Positions 1,897 through 20,000 of a stretch of 20,000 nucleotides of DNA are shown piece by piece (positions within the stretch are counted from its first letter, which is position 1; every line of letters begins with the position of its first letter). Source of the DNA: Chiloscyllium plagiosum. Taxonomy: Eukaryota. The stretch spans positions 92,468,560 to 92,488,559 of the forward strand of contig NC_057718.1 of assembly GCF_004010195.1 (NCBI RefSeq), in the 5' to 3' direction. The position numbers and the translations under genes were made by a program. A model generated the notes under the pieces. That model searched no databases. It saw only the letters and a list, made by a program, of their open reading frames with translations, and was not told the origin of the DNA.

Positions 1897-1912
1897 CAAA
1901 AAAATATATTCA

Positions 1913-2216
1913 GGCTGCATGGTGACTCAGTGGTTAGCACTGCTGCCTCACAGCACCAGGGTCCCAGGTTCAATTCCAGCCTCGAGTTCGCACATTCTTT
2001 CCATGTCAGCGTGGGTTTTCTCCGGGTGCTCCGGTTTCCTCCCACAGTCCAAAAATGTGCAGGTTAGGTGAATTGGCCATGCTAAATTGCCCATAGTGTT
2101 AGGTGCATTAGTCAGAGTGAAATGGGTCTGGGTGGGTTACTCTTCAGAGGGTTGGTGTGGACTGGTTGGGCCAAAGGGCCTGTTTCCACACTGTAGGGAA
2201 TCTAGTCTCATCTAAA
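1913..2216 (+). mobile_element. HE1-type tRNA-derived V-SINE (shark)
   Basis: tRNA-like head with A box (tggtgactcagtgg) and B box (ggttcaattcc). V-domain gtgggttttctccgggtgctccggtttcctcccacagtccaaa. CR1-like 3' end gggcctgtttccacactgta with a degenerate (tctaa)n tail. Short internal deletion near 1983 relative to the copy at 9303. Confidence 0.93.
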
Positions 2217-5538: not shown

Positions 5539-6280
5539 TGTTACAACACTGGGTGAACCCCTCTGCTAATTAAACCAAACATCCAGAAAAGCTCACCTTG
5601 CCTCATAATCTGCTCAAGTATGAGTAACAGAGAACTCCCAGATTACAGTATTTAAAGAAAAAATATCAATTTATTCTTTAACTCTAAAATTGAACATTAA
5701 ATAAGAACTACTTACAACTCTACGCTTTCTTTCTCCTGGCTGCTTGTTATCTGCCTCCAACTCTATAACAATACGCTGTTCCACTAACCACCCATATTAA
5801 AATTATATTAACTTAATTTTCAAAACCAGTCAGTGGCGGTCGTCTCCACTGTCCTTTCTCTGGCTGGAAATCTATCTGGGTTGTCTTCGGTCTTTTATTT
5901 TAAAGATGTTTCTTATAAAAGCGGTATCTTTGATAGAGAGTGTTTTGCTCGGTTACTCTGGTGATGGCAGTTGGTCCTCAGTCTAGCTAACTCTCAAAAT
6001 GCCAGCTTCTTTGTACCTGACATATTGGATCGTCTCATTGGTTCGATGTTGGCAAAACAGTAAAATTCAAATTTGATTGGGTTTTACTATCTTGGAGCAT
6101 AATTTAAATTAGTGAAATTCAAATTGTTGTGAAAGCACGGTGACCAAAACTCAGATACTTGTTTCGCAGCCAAATATTACATATTTTCAATTTTCACATG
6201 ACAGGTGCCTGCAAGATCTCAGTTCAAAACCACTTTCACTCTCTCTTAAAAGTACAGTACACGCCTTCGACTTCATAACA
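5539..6280 (-). mobile_element. Solo LTR (about 740 bp), probably Gypsy-type or ERV
   Basis: Termini tgtta...taaca (TG..CA with short inverted ends). AATAAA on the minus strand (tttatt near 5671). Colinear diverged second copy at 7934-8691. No PBS or PPT at the flanks. Confidence 0.72.
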
Positions 6281-7111: not shown

Positions 7112-7910
7112 TGTAGTTACATGAATGAGGTCAGCCTGATGGAGCTGATAGAATATGAATACCCTGACTGGGGCTGATAACATGGTCCGATCAGGAAGTT
7201 CTGGCTGACAGATAGAAATAGGAGTGTCAGGGGTTCTGTTCACTCTAGGAGCTGATTTTGAGCAAGCTTGGTCTGTGTCATGTCCTGTGCATATGTAAAT
7301 AAAGATAGACTTGGTGATGGGATGCTAGTATTTGTCGAGTTACTTCAGTGGCGATGTAAGAAAAATGCGCCCCTGAAGAGGACCGCTCGCCGCAGTTGTC
7401 TTTGAGGTGGGATAAGCATTTTTGATATCATGCCACCATTTGACTCATTTCGATCCTGCCACTGAAAACTGGGCCCAATATATGGAAAGAATGCAATTTT
7501 TTTCCATGTAATTGACATTGGCGCAGATGAAAAGCAATGAGTAATTCTCCTGACAGCTTGTGGACCGCCACCTTTTTCAGTTATTAGGAGCCCAAGCCTT
7601 CTCTAATTCTCTAACTGGACCAGAAGCTACAGGCAAAAGAAGAGGCCTATATACCAGGACTTAGAGGAGGAAGGATGTAGTGATTAGAACGAGGTCAGTC
7701 AGGTGGACCTCATAGAATATCAGTTCCTTGATTGGGGCTGTTAACCTGAACCAATCAGGGAGCCCTGGCTGCCAGATAAAAACAGGGGTGCCAGGGTTCT
7801 GTTAAATCTCGGAGCTACCTCTGAGCTAGCTGGGTCCATGTCATGTGCTCTGAACATGTAAATAAAGGGTGTCTTGGTGATGGGATACTGGCCACTGTGG
7901 AGTTACTTCA
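7112..7910 (+). mobile_element. Internally deleted Ty3/Gypsy LTR retrotransposon (TRIM-like size): LTR 7112-7347, PBS about 7349, gag stub 7430-7592, PPT 7663-7675, LTR 7676-7910
   Basis: Two ~235-bp direct repeats tgtag...ttca, each with aataaa. PBS-like tggcgatg. Frameshifted gag start MPPFDS/FDPATENWAQYMERMQFF..ADEKQ*VILLTACG. PPT agaggaggaagga. Degenerate 5-bp TSD gtcac/gttat. Confidence 0.88.
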
Positions 7911-7933
7911 GTTATCTGTTATGCACTTCATAG

Positions 7934-8691
7934 AGTTACAACACTGCAGTGGACCCCTCTGTTAATTAAAGCAAAAACTGGGAAAAGCTCATCTTGCCTC
8001 GTAATCTGTTAATATATATGAGTGACAGAGAACTCCCAAATTCCAATATTTAAAGAAAATAATATCAATTAATTCTTTAAGTCTAAAAGTGAATAATAAA
8101 CAACAACTATTCACAGCTCGAAGCAACCCCCTTTCTCTGAACTGCTTATTATCTTCCTCCGACTCTAAAACAATACACTGTTCCAATTAAACACGTAGTA
8201 AAATTACATTAACTTAATTTCAAAACCAAAGCTGTTGTCGTTGGTGCCTGTCTTCTTGTGGATGAAGATCTCCCTTCATCATCTTCTCTCTTTTTACTGT
8301 GAAGATGTTTCATATGAAAAGGTACCTTTGATAGGGAGTATTTCGATGGCAGTTATTCACTCAATGGCAGTTACTCTGTCTGACTTTCAAACTGCCTGCC
8401 TTTTTCATACCCCCAGAATCGGATCATTGGTTCGATGTCGGCAAAAACAATATATTCAAACTCAATTGAGTTTTAATATCCTGGGGAATAATTTAAACTG
8501 GTTAAATTCAAATTATTGTCAAAATAGCAACCAACTCAGGTGTCTATTTCACTACCAAATGTTATATATTTTCAATTTTCCAGTACACTCAGACTGCCAG
8601 CTAGTCATATGGCAGGTGCTTGTAAGCTCTCAGTGCAAAACAACATTCACACTTTCTTAGAAGTATAGTACACACCTTCAACTTCAGAACA
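7934..8691 (-). mobile_element. Solo LTR, second copy of the family at 5539-6280
   Basis: Starts (a)gttacaacactg and ends accttcaacttcagaaca. Colinear with 5539-6280 (shared cagagaactccca, cattggttcgatgt, caggtgc blocks). Flanks atag/gtag fit a decayed 4-bp TSD. Confidence 0.72.
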
Positions 8692-9285: not shown

Positions 9286-9899
9286 GAACATAAGAACTAA
9301 AAGGCGGCACGGTGGCACAGTGGTTAGCACTGCTGCCTCACAGCGCCAGAGACCCGGGTTCAATTCCCGCCTCAGGCGACTGACTGTGTGGAGTTTGCAC
9401 GTTCTCCTCGGGTCTGCGTGGGTTTCCTCCGGGTGCTCCGGTTTCCTCCCACAGTCCAAAGATGCGCAGGGTCAGGTGAATTGGCCATACTAAATTGCCC
9501 GTAGTGTTAGGTAAGGGGTAAATATAGGGGTATGGGTGGGTTTCGCTTCGGCGGGTCGGTGTGGACTTGTTGGGCCGAAGGGCCTGTTTCCACATTGTAA
9601 TCTAATCTAATCTAATCATAATCTAAACTAGGAGCAGGAGTAGGCCATCTGGCCCTTCGAGTCTGCTCCGCCATTCAATAAGATCATGGCTGATCTTTTT
9701 GTGGCCTCAGCTCCACTTACCCGCCCTCTCACTGTAATCCTAAATTCCTTTATTGTTAAAAAGAATCGATCTTAACTTTAAAAACATTTACTGAAGTAGT
9801 GTCAACTACCTCACTGGGCAGGGAATTCCATAGATTCACAACCCTCTGGGTGAAGAAGTTCCTTCTCAATTCAGTCTTAAATCTGCTCCCCCTAATTTG
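9286..9899 (-). mobile_element. CR1 LINE 3' fragment (different tail family), interrupted in its tail by a SINE
   Basis: gaacataagaact...aggagcaggagtaggccatc...ccattcaataagatcatggctgatc. Minus translation SRFKTELRRNFFTQRVVNLWNSLPSEVV. Confidence 0.85.
9303..9625 (+). mobile_element. Young full-length HE1-type V-SINE
   Basis: ggcggcacggtggcacagtggttagcactgctgcctcacagcgcc with A/B boxes, V-domain, CR1-derived 3' end and (tctaa)n tail. CpGs are retained. Candidate TSD aacta (9295-9299 / 9626-9630). Confidence 0.95.
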
Positions 9900-16260: not shown

Positions 16261-16968
16261 CTTGTTGCCAGCTATTTCAACCTTGTTCCCTAGCCAACCT
16301 CTCTGATTCAGGCTTACCGCAGTGATCCAATTAAGCTTAGCACAAGTTGGAAGAACAGCACTTCATTTTCTGCTTGGAAACTCTATAGCCTTCTGGATTC
16401 ATTATTGAGTTCAACAGTTTTAGGGTTTGAGGCACCTTTTCTCATGTTCTTACCCCAAACCCCACACACGAGGCCTTGTTATCACATGGTCCGCTATTAC
16501 ACACTACCCATTGTTAGCCACTTAGAGTCCCCATTAGCAGCAATTCATTCTTCCATGTTGATCATATCTCCTCCTTTATCTGTCCAACTCTTCTGCTCTC
16601 TCTCTTTGAGTTCTATTTCCATCCATACTTTACCCTTTGCCCTCACCCTAATCTTCTGCTTAAAAAGCAACCTTTTCCTAGCTACCACCAGTTTTGAAGA
16701 AGGATCACTGGACCTGAAATATTAACAACGATTTCTCTTGTCAAAAAGTGTGGCGCTGGAAAAGCATCCAGGGAGCAGGAGGAATTCCTGATGAAGGGCT
16801 TATGCCTGAAATGTCGACTCTCCTACTCCTCAGATGTTGCCTGACCTGCTGGGCTTTTCCAGCGCCGCATGTTCTGACTCTGATCTCCAGCATCTGCAGT
16901 CCTCACTTTCTCCTAATGATTTCTCTTCACAGATGCTGCTAAAATTTTCCAGCAATTTCTGCTTTTGT
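16261..16968 (+). mobile_element. Penelope-like element 3' fragment (end of GIY-YIG ORF + pseudo-LTR), interrupted at 16740-16914
   Basis: Degenerate HKLEEQHFIFCLETL*PSGFIIEFNSFRV* (PLE C-terminal E..I..L.T..P.GLN motif). Pyrimidine-rich UTR. Decayed hammerhead ttgaaga-aggatcactggacct-gaaa at 16694-16719. Ends cacagatgctgc..ttttccagcaatttctg. Confidence 0.78.
16740..16914 (+). mobile_element. Non-coding fold-back PLE-derived insertion #1 with hammerhead core
   Basis: Inverted arms gtcaaaaagtgtggcgctggaaaagc / gcttttccagcgccgcatgttctgac. CTGATGA 16788-16794 and GAAA 16808-16811. Tail tgatctccagcatctgcagtcctcactttctcct. 13-bp TSD aacgatttctctt / aatgatttctctt. Confidence 0.85.
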
Positions 16969-17288
16969 TTATGGTTCTTTCATGTTTTTATTCCAATAGC
17001 TGAGAGTTGGGAGAAGTGAGCGTTCTATGAACTTAATTTGGTTGAATGGTTTTATTTATTAATTTTTCATATTTCCTGTTGGTCAATAAAAGTTAACATT
17101 TTTCACCACCAAGACTGGCTCTACAGCAGTACTACAGATCAAGCTATTCAGGTCCGAAAGGACACAACTGCTAGTCTGGGGCTGCGGCAGGTGATGAAGG
17201 AACCAATAAGAGGGGAAAACATTCTTACCTCATCCCTACCAATCTGCCAGTTGCAGATACATCTATCCATGACAGTATCGGTAAGAGT

Positions 17289-17478
17289 CAAGAGTGTGGT
17301 GCTGGAAAAGCACAGCAGGTCAGGCTGTATCGAGGAGCAGGAGAATCGATGTTTTGGGCATAAGCCCTTCATCAGGAATGGCATTCTGATGAAGGGCTTA
17401 TGCCTGAAACCTGCTGTGATTTTCCAGCACCACACACTTGACTCTGATCTCAACCATTTGCAGTCCTCACTTTCTCCT
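17289..17478 (+). mobile_element. Non-coding fold-back PLE-derived insertion #2 (same family as #1) with two damaged hammerhead cores
   Basis: Arms gagtcaagagtgtggtgctggaaaagcacagcagg / cctgctgtgattttccagcaccacacacttgactc. Centre gcataagcccttcatcaggaatg-g-cattctgatgaagggcttatgc. Same tail as #1. TSD gtatcggtaagagt / atttcagtaagagt (11/14). Confidence 0.88.
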
Positions 17479-17662
17479 ATTTCAGTAAGAGTGACCACTG
17501 CACAGACTTTGTGGAGATGCAGTCCCGCCTTCTTCATGTTATGTGGCACTATCACTGTGCTAAATAGGACATGATTTGGAGATGCCGGTGTTGGACTGGA
17601 GTGTACAAAGTTAAAAATCACACAACACCAGGTTATAGTCCAACAGGTTTAATTGGAAACAT

Positions 17663-17696
17663 ACTAGCTTTCGGAGCGAAGCTCCTTCATCAGGTG
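17663..17696 (-). ncRNA. Minimal type I hammerhead ribozyme (minus strand)
   Basis: Reverse complement reads cac-CUGAUGA-a-GGAGC-uuc-GCUCC-GAAA-gc-UA-gu. Catalytic core intact. Confidence 0.75.
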
Positions 17697-17703
17697 ACAC
17701 AAT

Positions 17704-17738
17704 CACCTGATGAAGGAGCGTCGCTCCGAAAGCTAGTG
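17704..17738 (+). ncRNA. Minimal type I hammerhead ribozyme (plus strand)
   Basis: CAC-CUGAUGA-a-GGAGC-guc-GCUCC-GAAA-gc-UA|GUG. Stem I CAC/GUG, 5-bp stem II, vestigial palindromic stem III (AGCU). Predicted cleavage after A17735. Confidence 0.8.
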
Positions 17739-19415
17739 TGTTTCCAATTAAACCTGTTGGACTATAACCTGGTGTTGTGTGATTTTTAACTGAATAGGAC
17801 AGACTTTGAACAGATCGAACAACTCAAGACTGGGCATCCACGAGGCGCTGTGGGCCATTAACAGCAGCAGAATTGTATTCCAACACAGTCTGTAATCTCA
17901 TAGCCCAGCATATCTCCCAGTCAACCATTATCATCAAGCCAGGGGATTAACCTGGTTCAATGGAGAGTGCAGGAGGGCATGCCAGGAGCAACAAGAGGCA
18001 TACCCGAAGATGAGGTGTCAACCTGATGAAGCCACCAAACAGAACTACTTGCATGCCAAACAGCATTAGCAGCAAAGAATAGACAAAGCTTAGCAATCCC
18101 CACAACTAACGGATCAGATCTAAGCTCTGCGGTCCTGCCACATTCAGTTGTGAATGATGGTGGACAATTAAACAACTCACTGGTGGAGGAGGCTCCACAA
18201 ATATCCCCATTGTCAATGATGGAAGAGCCCAGCAAAACAGTGCAATAATTAAGGCTGAAGCTATCGCACCAATCTTCAGCCAGAATTCCCAAGTGAATGA
18301 TCCATCTCTGACTCCTCCAGTGGTCCCCAGCATTACAGATACTAGTCTTCAGCCAATTTGATTCAGTCCACATGATATCACGAAACAGGTGGAGGCACTG
18401 AATACTGTAAAGGCTATAGGTCCTGACCACATTCTGGCAATAGTACTGAAGACTTGTGCTCCAGAACCTGCTGCTCTCTTAGCCAAGCTGTTCCAGTACA
18501 GATACAACACTGGTATCAACCCGATAATATGGAAAATTGTCCAAGTATGTCCTGTACATAAAAAGCAGGACAAATCCAACCTGGCCAATTACCGCCCCAT
18601 CATTCTACTCTCGACCATCAGTATAGTGATGGAAAGTGTCATCAATAGTGCTATCAGGCAGCACCTGCTCAGTGATGCACAGTTTGGGTTCTGCCAGGGC
18701 CACTCAGCGTCGGACCTCATTACAGCCATTGTCCTAACATAGACAAAAGAACTGAATTCCAGAGGTGAGGTGAGAGTGACAGCCCTTGACATCAATGCTG
18801 CATTCGACCAAATGTGGCTTCACTTGGGTATCGGGGCCAAACTCTCCAGTGGTTGGAGTCAAAGTTGACACATAGAAAAATAGTGAGGAAGTCAGTCATC
18901 TCAGTTCCAGGACACCTCTGCAAGAGTTCCTTCGGGTAGTGTCCTTAGCCCAACCATCTTCAGCTGCTTCATCAAAGACCTTCCCTCCACCATAAGATCA
19001 GAGTGGGGATGTTCGTCAATGATTGCACAATGTTCAACATCATTCACGACTCCTCTGATACTGAAGCAGTCCATGATCAAATGCAACAAAATCTGGATAA
19101 TATCCAGGCTTGAGCTGACAAGTGGCAAGTAACATTTGCACCACAATTGCCAGGCTGTGACCATCACCAATAAAAGACAATCTCACCACTGCCCCTTGGC
19201 ATTCAACAGTGTTGCCATTACTGAATCCACCACTATCAACATACTGGGGGTTATCATTGACCAGAATCTCAGCTGGACTCACCACATAAACACAGTGGCT
19301 ACAAGAGCAAGTCAGAAGCTAGGAATACTGCGCCTCAAAGCCTGTCCACCATCCAAATGGCACAAGTCAGGAGTGTGATGGAATACTCTTCACTTGCCTA
19401 GATAAGTGTAGCTGG

Positions 19416-20000
19416 AAATGTGTTGCTGGAAAAGCGCAGCAGGTCAGGCAGCATCCAGGGAACAGGAGAATCGACGTTTCGGGCATAAGCCCTTCTTCAG
19501 GAATGAGGAAAGTTTTTCCAGCAGGCTAAGATAAAAGGTGGGGAGGAGGGACTTGAGGGAGGGGCGTCGGAAATGTGATAGGTGGAAAGAGGTCAAGGTG
19601 AGGGTGATAGGTCAGACTGGAGTGGGGGCGGAGAGGTCAGGAAGAAGATTGCAGGTTAGGAAGGCGGTGCTGAATTCGATGGATTAGACGGAGACAAGGT
19701 GGGGGGAGGGGAAATACCTTGTCTCAGTCAAATCCATCGAACTCAGCACCGCCTTCCTAACCTGCAATCTTCTTCCCGACCTCTCCGCCCCCACCCCAGT
19801 CTCACCTATCACCCTCACCTTGACCTCTTTCCACCGATCACATTTCCGACGCCCCTCCCCCAAGCCCCTCCTCCCTACCTTTTATCTTAGCCTGCTGGAC
19901 AAACTGTCCTCATTCCTGAAGAAGGGCTAATACCCAAAACGTCGATTCTCCTGTTCCCTGGATGCTGCCTGACCTGCTGCGCTTTTCCAGCAACACATTT
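19416..20000. mobile_element. Large fold-back PLE-derived insertion #4 (related to #1/#2): arms of about 285 bp, 15-nt loop; runs off the window
   Basis: 19416-19700 is the near reverse complement of 19716-20000 (aaatgtgttgctggaaaagcgcagcaggtcaggc / gcctgacctgctgcgcttttccagcaacacattt). Loop ggggggaggggaaat. A hammerhead core lies in each arm. Confidence 0.92.
19470..19504 (-). ncRNA. Minimal hammerhead ribozyme core (minus strand); the mirror copy at 19916-19943 has GAAA changed to AAAA
   Basis: Reverse complement auuc-CUGAAGA-a-GGGC-uuau-GCCC-GAAA-c-GUC|gau. Palindromic ACGU at stem III; stem I weak. Confidence 0.65.

What the first reader, a model, noticed from the sequence alone, without database searches (positions are those of the whole stretch)
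17572..17801. Near-perfect 89-bp palindrome encoding an intact hammerhead on both strands
Seen: arms match at 87/89, and one of the two differences lies in the stem II loop (guc vs uuc), so both catalytic cores are preserved. A transcript from either strand carries a ribozyme in its 3' arm and the exact antisense in its 5' arm. Inference: read-through RNA would fold into a long hairpin that masks the ribozyme and is an ADAR/Dicer substrate, while shorter RNA could self-cleave, probably as a dimer via AGCU as known for minimal hammerheads. Ribozymes in both polarities recall viroid-like RNAs, but one cleavage site per strand is not enough to release a circular monomer.
Basis: partly seen in the sequence, partly recalled or inferred. 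Interest (0 to 1): 0.7.

Follow-up and report, generated by a model that had tools for sequence, protein, structure and literature searches.

The report
Head-to-head Penelope leader stubs
The palindrome and its two hammerhead motifs are real, but they are two short back-to-back pieces of a very abundant Penelope-type jumping gene, likely copied from the first 100-130 bases of its RNA and inserted together, not a viroid-like or regulatory RNA.

Summary
The 89-bp arms (87/89 match) and both hammerhead cores are present. It belongs to a repeat family of about 9x10^4 loci. The arm is the pLTR of a Neptune-type Penelope-like element (RT, CX4CXXC, GIY-YIG-like), and the tail ends at that element's ATG. 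An inverted pLTR plus tail is a described layout. The family data add a mechanism. Copy 5' ends stop sharply 30 nt behind a TATAAA box (12 of 86 at -9/-8, none at -10 to -41), not at the ribozyme cut site. Family RNA is polyadenylated after an ATTAAA inside the arm. The arms are therefore likely two run-off ('strong-stop'-like) cDNAs of the uncut RNA leader. No RNA reads bridged this locus's right junction. The scan has seen such stubs before and once proposed the cap reading (e1-8021554). The locus is ordinary; the LTR-like leader organisation is the interesting part.

The parts
17563..17571 (.). Left target-site duplication copy AATAGGACA (12 bp, 17560-17571, if one mismatch and 2-nt microhomologies at both element ends are allowed)
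   Evidence: empty site in 10 of 11 paralogous LINE copies
17570..17608 (-). PLE 'tail': the 5' leader segment that ends at the element's ORF start codon (ATG at 17572-17570 on the minus strand, its last two bases shared with the duplication)
   Evidence: L338, L345 and L348 run arm-tail-ATG-ORF; the tail is one-sided across copies
17609..17697 (-). Left copy (tail arm) of the pLTR, 5' end at -4 relative to hammerhead C3
17662..17696 (-). Minus-strand minimal type I hammerhead motif; core intact, predicted cut between 17665 and 17664, stem I reduced to 2 bp by the change at 17662
17698..17792 (+). Right copy (tail-less arm) of the pLTR, 5' end at -9, next to the inferred transcription start A(-8) = 17699
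17704..17738 (+). Plus-strand minimal type I hammerhead motif (3-bp stem I, CUGAUGA, 5-bp stem II, GAAA, AGCU palindrome, predicted cut 17735/17736)
   Evidence: cleavage untested
17747..17767 (+). ATTAAA signal (17747-17752) with family RNA poly(A) sites at 17764 and 17767
   Evidence: non-templated A runs in 63 + 87 of 372 reads laid and 339 + 417 of 2690 at the same sites of L065; these are family reads, not locus-specific
17793..17801 (.). Right target-site duplication copy
17480..19400 (+). Host LINE fragment interrupted by the insertion (bounds approximate; RT-like frame at 18362-18742; the CR1/L2 label is recalled)
   Evidence: 3380 candidates, best scored 86-89% identical

Best explanation
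This is a 221-bp insertion, with a target-site duplication, of two head-to-head end pieces of an abundant Penelope-like (Neptune-type) retrotransposon, likely made when two reverse-transcription events each copied only the 5' leader of the element's RNA. Shown: in long copies the order is TATAAA (-38), TCCACA (-11 to -6), hammerhead (0-31), ATTAAA (+40), arm end (about +85), tail, ATG (+121), ORF; the same arm also follows the ORF and 3' UTR. Inferred steps: (1) the pLTR promoter starts a capped RNA at A(-8); (2) the endonuclease nicks both target strands about 9-12 nt apart; (3) RT primes at each nick, once at the tail end by the AUG and once at about +85, as shown in vitro for the Anolis element; (4) both cDNAs run off the RNA 5' end after about 95-130 nt; (5) their 3' ends are trimmed by a few bases and joined head to head. 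The unit has lost the promoter and is probably a dead end. Its ribozymes are passengers and would be masked in any read-through RNA.
For: Link to the PLE: the arm occurs in 18 of 20 endonuclease-hit loci; L094 reads tail-arm-UTR(-) then RT-EN-UTR-arm(+); RVT_1 in 3 of 3 long frames, E 4e-9 to 1e-8; arm-tail-ATG-ORF in 3 of 30 N-terminal loci. Insertion: empty site in 10 of 11; exact duplications of 9 bp or more in 62 of 90 tail-selected loci, median 12, against 7 of 90 in a simpler 9-mer control. Two templates: in 22 of 45 adjacent pairs the tail-less arm reaches at least 5 nt further 5' than the tail arm, so it cannot be a fold-back copy of it; here -9 versus -4. RNA 5' end: 35 of 86 ends at -9 to +7 against 2 at -80 to -10, p=4e-23, window chosen after seeing the data; G precedes A(-8) in 8 of 12 against 18 of 58 at the other end positions 0 to -9, p=0.024. 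Literature: both-strand nicking and extension, two internal RT start sites bounding the tail, ribozyme cleavage not needed (PMC11167929, parts 1-2 read).
Against: No RNA 5'-end peak was seen (table 6 empty; the poly(A) single-cell library is probably ill-suited to 5' ends). The cap-G signal is modest and post hoc, and some of the Gs could be templated by the partner arm. Ends at -9 (9 cases, including this locus) show G in only 1 of 9. 34 of 90 tail arms had no partner within 1.4 kb. Pfam did not recognise the endonuclease (0 of 2): GIY-YIG and Neptune rest on motifs read by eye, and no tree was built.
Confidence: 0.72

Rival explanations
1. Same PLE origin, but the arms are ordinary 5'-truncated copies of a long or tandem RNA, and the pile-up just before the hammerhead comes from RT stalling at the folded ribozyme or from microhomology-biased joining (ATCA/TGAT, GA/TC) rather than from the RNA's 5' end.
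For: Many junctions overlap by 1-13 nt; ends spread over -9 to +23; 5' truncation with an inverted copy is the standard description (PMC8557442 passages).
Against: The hard edge at -9/-8 with none from -10 to -41 lies 30 nt behind TATAAA at an Inr-like site. It also occurs in arms without a partner (L273, L316, L319). RT travelling towards the 5' end would stall at the 3' side of a structure, not beyond it (inference).
Confidence: 0.18
2. A non-autonomous MITE- or retrozyme-like mini-element that is transcribed and retrotransposed as a whole palindrome.
For: 39 near-identical whole-unit relatives at 94-97%; both arms start at -12 to +7 in 16 of 90 loci.
Against: Junctions and arm lengths differ from copy to copy, with insert lengths from 85 to over 1200 bp. 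The promoter is absent from the unit. The copies are dispersed inverted pairs, not the tandem units that define non-LTR retrozymes (bioRxiv 10.64898/2026.07.22.740005, part 1 read).
Confidence: 0.05
3. The arms are copies of ribozyme-cleaved RNA or of a circular intermediate, as proposed for PLE hammerheads.
For: 5 of 86 ends fall at +27 to +31, p=0.07; the circular model is proposed in PMC4209133.
Against: Both arms here, and most in the family, keep the sequence 5' of the cut site. Three of those five (L262, L265, L274) carry a 2-nt deletion variant that shifts the called end (by eye).
Confidence: 0.03
4. One reading: a locus-specific functional hairpin or two-polarity ribozyme switch, viroid-like.
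For: The plus-strand motif is intact, and a long hairpin is predicted.
Against: One of about 9x10^4 loci; minus-strand stem I is broken; zero RNA depth over 17810-17949 in runs X20 and X2 (these may be related species); no host exon recognised around it (weak test).
Confidence: 0.02

Closest known systems
EN+ Penelope-like element insertions with inverted pLTR, one-sided 30-40-bp tail and TSD (Arkhipova 2013 PMC3846280; Craig 2021 PMC8557442; passages read)
   Same: Head-to-head inverted pLTR, tail on one end only, 8-10-bp TSD in their examples, TATA/Inr-like motifs in the pLTR, tail adjoining the ORF start.
   Different: Here no ORF or 3' UTR is inserted; both copies stop at a sharp position before the hammerhead. 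The tail lies just before the ATG, whereas in their A. vaga example pLTR and tail extend into the ORF.
PAc Poseidon of Anolis (Frangieh 2024, PMC11167929; parts 1-2 of 4 read)
   Same: Both strands nicked and extended, two internal RT start sites bounding the tail, hammerhead dispensable for insertion.
   Different: Different clade. In PAc the ORF starts in stem II and RT starts 111-118 nt into the ORF. The paper assumes a multi-copy mRNA; the parts read do not describe run-off at a capped 5' end or polyadenylation in the pLTR.
Minimal type I hammerheads of metazoan PLEs (Cervera and De la Pena 2014, PMC4209133; parts 1-2 of 4 read)
   Same: Core boxes, extra base between positions 9 and 10.1, G10.1-C11.1 pair, palindromic 15.2-16.2, short stem I, opposite-strand pairs noted in Schistosoma.
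   Different: The pair here is directly fused, and one member has a broken stem I.
Retroviral / LTR-element U3-R-U5 and minus-strand strong-stop DNA (recalled)
   Same: Promoter upstream, start site and poly(A) site bounding a repeated segment, priming downstream in the leader, short run-off cDNA.
   Different: Target-primed rather than tRNA-primed, no integrase, two priming sites; strand transfer is inferred only.

Membership tests
EN+ Penelope-like element | Single ORF with PLE-type RT | tested here: met
   In linked long copies: RVT_1 in 3 of 3; DKG, GTAMGT and YIDD motifs seen. Absent from the stub itself.
EN+ Penelope-like element | C-terminal GIY-YIG endonuclease | tested here: inconclusive
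   VVYLIRC...YIGET...LRQRMNGH seen by eye; Pfam 0 of 2 and no PDB relative.
EN+ Penelope-like element | pLTR at both ends of the ORF carrying a hammerhead | tested here: met
   Arm after EN-UTR and before tail-ATG.
EN+ Penelope-like element | Inverted 5'-truncated copy, one-sided 30-40-bp tail, TSD | tested here: met
Neptune clade | CX2-5CxxC linker between RT and EN | tested here: met
   CHGGRCKTC; criterion from passages of bioRxiv 2021.04.23.441226. Shared with Nematis.
Neptune clade | RT phylogenetic placement | not tested
Minimal type I hammerhead | CUGANGA, GAAA, NUH, stem II, palindromic stem III remnant | tested here: met
   Both strands.
Minimal type I hammerhead | Stem I able to form | tested here: inconclusive
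   Plus strand 3 bp (p about 0.33); minus strand 2 bp (p 0.07 or less).
Minimal type I hammerhead | Self-cleavage | not testable with these tools
   Needs an in vitro assay.
Non-LTR retrozyme | Head-to-tail tandem units, each with a hammerhead | tested here: not met
   No such tandem in the window; family copies are dispersed inverted pairs.
Viroid-like circular RNA | Unit-length RNA released by two same-strand cuts, no DNA-level TSD | tested here: not met
   One site per strand; TSD and empty site present.

The most novel reading that the evidence does not exclude
This Neptune-type element replicates with retrovirus-like logic. Its pLTR is a true U3-R-U5: a TATA promoter, an R segment from the cap at -8 to the poly(A) site at +57/+60 that contains the hammerhead, and a U5-plus-tail leader ending at the AUG. 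Target-primed RT starts in the leader, makes a strong-stop cDNA, and must jump to the 3' R to copy the body. The tens of thousands of stubs and palindromes are failed jumps frozen in the genome, which would explain pLTR formation without tandem read-through or circular RNA.
Probability: 0.35. Interest if true: 0.7.

Novelty: new member of a known kind. Interest (0 to 1): 0.32.

Why it matters
The locus itself is one dead-end insertion among roughly 10^5 and needs no special function. The family is more useful. The papers read treat the PLE transposition cycle as unresolved, and these stubs give a large natural record of where RT starts and stops. If the cap and poly(A) reading holds, it supplies a testable route from a single-unit transcript to pLTR-flanked copies and shows that uncut RNA is the main template in vivo, as found in vitro for PAc. 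It also warns that opposed hammerhead pairs in such genomes are not signs of viroid-like agents.

Tried and rejected
Rfam scan: no hammerhead family hit; miRNA hits are generic hairpin matches below their gathering scores. Look-up of earlier findings by sequence: nothing. DNA search with tail plus arm end: empty, probably because the tool skips very common words. The long 'open frames' picked were assembly gaps. Pfam and PDB searches for the endonuclease: no relevant hit. Run search: no RNA holder listed on record; run X21 laid no reads, so it is no test. No listed DNA contig bridged the right junction, so presence in relatives is undecided. Host-gene search: 150 of 156 candidate frames in the 420 kb around the window gave only XRN_N exons, starting about 82 kb downstream on the plus strand; intronic or intergenic status is unresolved. 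Fold-back from one cDNA was rejected as the general route, although some junctions such as L257 fit it. Arm subtype agreement was 8 of 9 classifiable pairs out of 19 (p=0.027): it hints that both arms come from one source element but is too thin to rely on. Paper searches found no paper on strong-stop cDNA or pLTR polyadenylation in PLEs, or on this shark family. The library lacks subscription journals and Repbase reports, and no supplements were read, so the point may be in print.

Full report
Observation. The inverted repeat is as described: arms 17609-17697 and 17703-17791, 87 of 89 matching. Both strands carry a minimal type I hammerhead core with the AGCU palindrome; predicted cuts are 17735/17736 (plus) and 17665/17664 (minus). 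One mismatch is in loop II. The other, 17662, turns the third stem I pair of the minus-strand motif into C-A. In folds of single arms, stem I pair probabilities are about 0.33 (plus) and 0.07 or less (minus); in the full hairpin stem II essentially never forms. Positions below are relative to hammerhead C3 (17707 on the plus strand).

It is an insertion. AATAGGACA flanks the unit at 17563-17571 and 17793-17801. The flanks are a LINE-like repeat. None of 11 paralogous copies has the insert, and in 10 of them the left-flank-like sequence runs straight into the right-flank sequence with the motif present once. A 37-bp segment (17572-17608) is present on the left side only.

It is very abundant. 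The whole-unit query gave 2558 candidates; the 40 scored include 39 other loci at 94-97% identity, and the 29 of 30 fetched loci that were printed have unrelated flanks. Sixty 10-kb stretches taken at fixed positions (586,206 non-N bases) held 15 loci, about 9x10^4 genome-wide (5-15x10^4). The genome is probably a shark; that label comes from a recalled SINE resemblance and from earlier scan notes.

It is the end of a Penelope-like element. Longer copies extend upstream into a shared 3' UTR and an endonuclease-like frame; 18 of 20 endonuclease-hit loci contain the arm. Further upstream lie an RT (RVT_1 in 3 of 3; DKG, GTAMGT and YIDD motifs), a CHGGRCKTC linker and VVYLIRC...YIGET. This matches the description of Neptune/Nematis elements in passages of Craig et al.. 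Pfam did not recognise the endonuclease and I built no tree. L094 shows the same layout as the finding with a long sense copy: tail-arm-UTR on the minus strand, then RT-EN-UTR-arm. In 3 of 30 loci found with the ORF's N-terminal part (L338, L345, L348), the order is arm, tail, ATG, ORF, with the ATG at +119 to +121. So the tail is the last part of the 5' leader.

Where copies begin. I selected loci by an exact 35-nt tail pattern, independent of truncation (213 matches), and analysed 90 of the first listed, leaving out the window's own. Four ended at assembly gaps and were dropped. Of 86 tail arms, 12 end at -9/-8, 35 at -9 to +7, none at -10 to -41 and two at -80 to -10. In intact copies TATAAA is at -38 (-36 to -40) and TCCAC(A/T) at -11 to -6, so A(-8) is where a TATA/Inr promoter would start (established spacing, recalled). 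In the unselected and tail-selected loci together, a G precedes A(-8) in 8 of 12 against 18 of 58 at the other end positions 0 to -9 (p=0.024), as expected if RT copies the cap (recalled from other retroelements). This is modest and post hoc, and ends at -9, including this locus's right arm, lack the G. Ends near the ribozyme cut (+29) are at most weakly enriched: 5 of 86, p=0.07, three of them in a deletion variant that shifts the call.

Where family RNA ends. In one raw RNA run (X20, about 2% read; coded organism, possibly a relative), reads carry non-templated A runs at +57 and +60, 12-15 nt after ATTAAA (339 + 417 of 2690 reads on L065; 63 + 87 of 372 on the window arm). The genomic sequence there is not A-rich. 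These reads may come from host transcripts that end in stubs, so they show that the signal works, not that the element's own mRNA uses it. No 5'-end peak was listed. Depth over this locus's right flank (17810-17949) was zero in both RNA runs laid.

Two cDNAs. A partner arm was found in 56 of 90 loci, and exact duplications of 9 bp or more in 62 of 90, median 12. Among 45 adjacent pairs the tail-less arm reaches at least 5 nt further 5' in 22, the tail arm in 12, and 11 are within 4 nt. A fold-back copy cannot be longer than its template, and the tail arm cannot be copied from a tail-less cDNA. Here the starts are -9 (tail-less) and -4 (tail arm). This fits the in vitro behaviour of the Anolis element: both strands nicked and extended, two RT start sites bounding the tail, hammerhead mutants without effect (PMC11167929).

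Mechanism. Shown: layout, duplication, empty site, PLE linkage, end distribution, poly(A) on family reads. Inferred: capped start at -8, twin priming at about +85 and at the AUG, run-off, trimming and joining. If the element's RNA ends at +57/+60, the +60 to +121 segment on long copies can only come from the leader, which would require a jump within the repeated segment. Tandem read-through RNA, as assumed in the literature, remains an alternative.

Function of this copy. None is indicated. The promoter is not included. The right arm is identical to at least 10 other loci, and the two arm differences and a tail variant all lie in the left copy. Family-wide, 57 of 112 arms keep the core and 36 keep core plus stems. 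The nearest recognised host gene, an XRN-family gene, starts about 82 kb downstream.

Literature seen. PMC4209133 and PMC11167929: parts 1-2 of 4. bioRxiv 10.64898/2026.07.22.740005: part 1 of 5. PMC3846280, PMC8557442, its preprint, PMC2377424 and PMC6765202: passages. Lunse et al. on dimer cleavage: only as cited in PMC6765202. No supplements were read. Inverted pLTR plus tail plus TSD, minimal hammerheads and pLTR promoters are all described. Searches found nothing on strong-stop products or pLTR polyadenylation, within a library that lacks many journals.

Earlier scan notes. Eight notes describe such shark stubs, two mentioning joins at the ribozyme's front. One (e1-8021554) proposes the TATA/cap reading, which I had written down before seeing it; these are not independent support. 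A word search for the polyadenylation / U3-R-U5 aspect found none.

Verdict. A real feature and a new member of a known kind; interest 0.32, carried mostly by the family-level mechanism.

Noticed in passing
window 19416-20000: A 285-bp-arm inverted repeat (95%, 15-nt spacer) with a hammerhead-like motif near each outer end (CTGAAGA core variant); likely a second, different PLE family. It may run past the window end.
   Followed up: no
window 17284-17445 and 16744-16870: Smaller fold-back and single copies of the same second hammerhead family (cores at 17386 and 16788), the first immediately upstream of the LINE that holds the finding.
   Followed up: no
L081 1860-3956: Frames of another PLE family (DKG, GVAMGT, YIDD, CNRKKCKTC) beside the family studied, so at least two Neptune-like lineages are in this genome.
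   Followed up: no
L248, L261, L287, L293 junctions: Short extra pieces of leader sequence at junctions, in L248 of a different sequence variant, suggesting template jumps between RNAs after the run-off.
   Followed up: partly
L127, L141: Tail alone (no arm) joined head to head to an ORF-containing copy.
   Followed up: partly
L174 9475-9690 and L176 9751-9936: XRN 5'-3' exonuclease N-terminal exons on the plus strand, about 82 kb and more downstream of the finding.
   Followed up: no
window 1912-2195 and 9302-9599: Two copies of a tRNA-derived-looking SINE (resembles shark HE1, recalled).
   Followed up: no
window 5553-6195 / 7949-8580 and 7112-7349 / 7676-7912: Diverged direct repeats at about 2.4-kb and 564-bp spacing; the first could be the LTR pair of an old element.
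   Followed up: no
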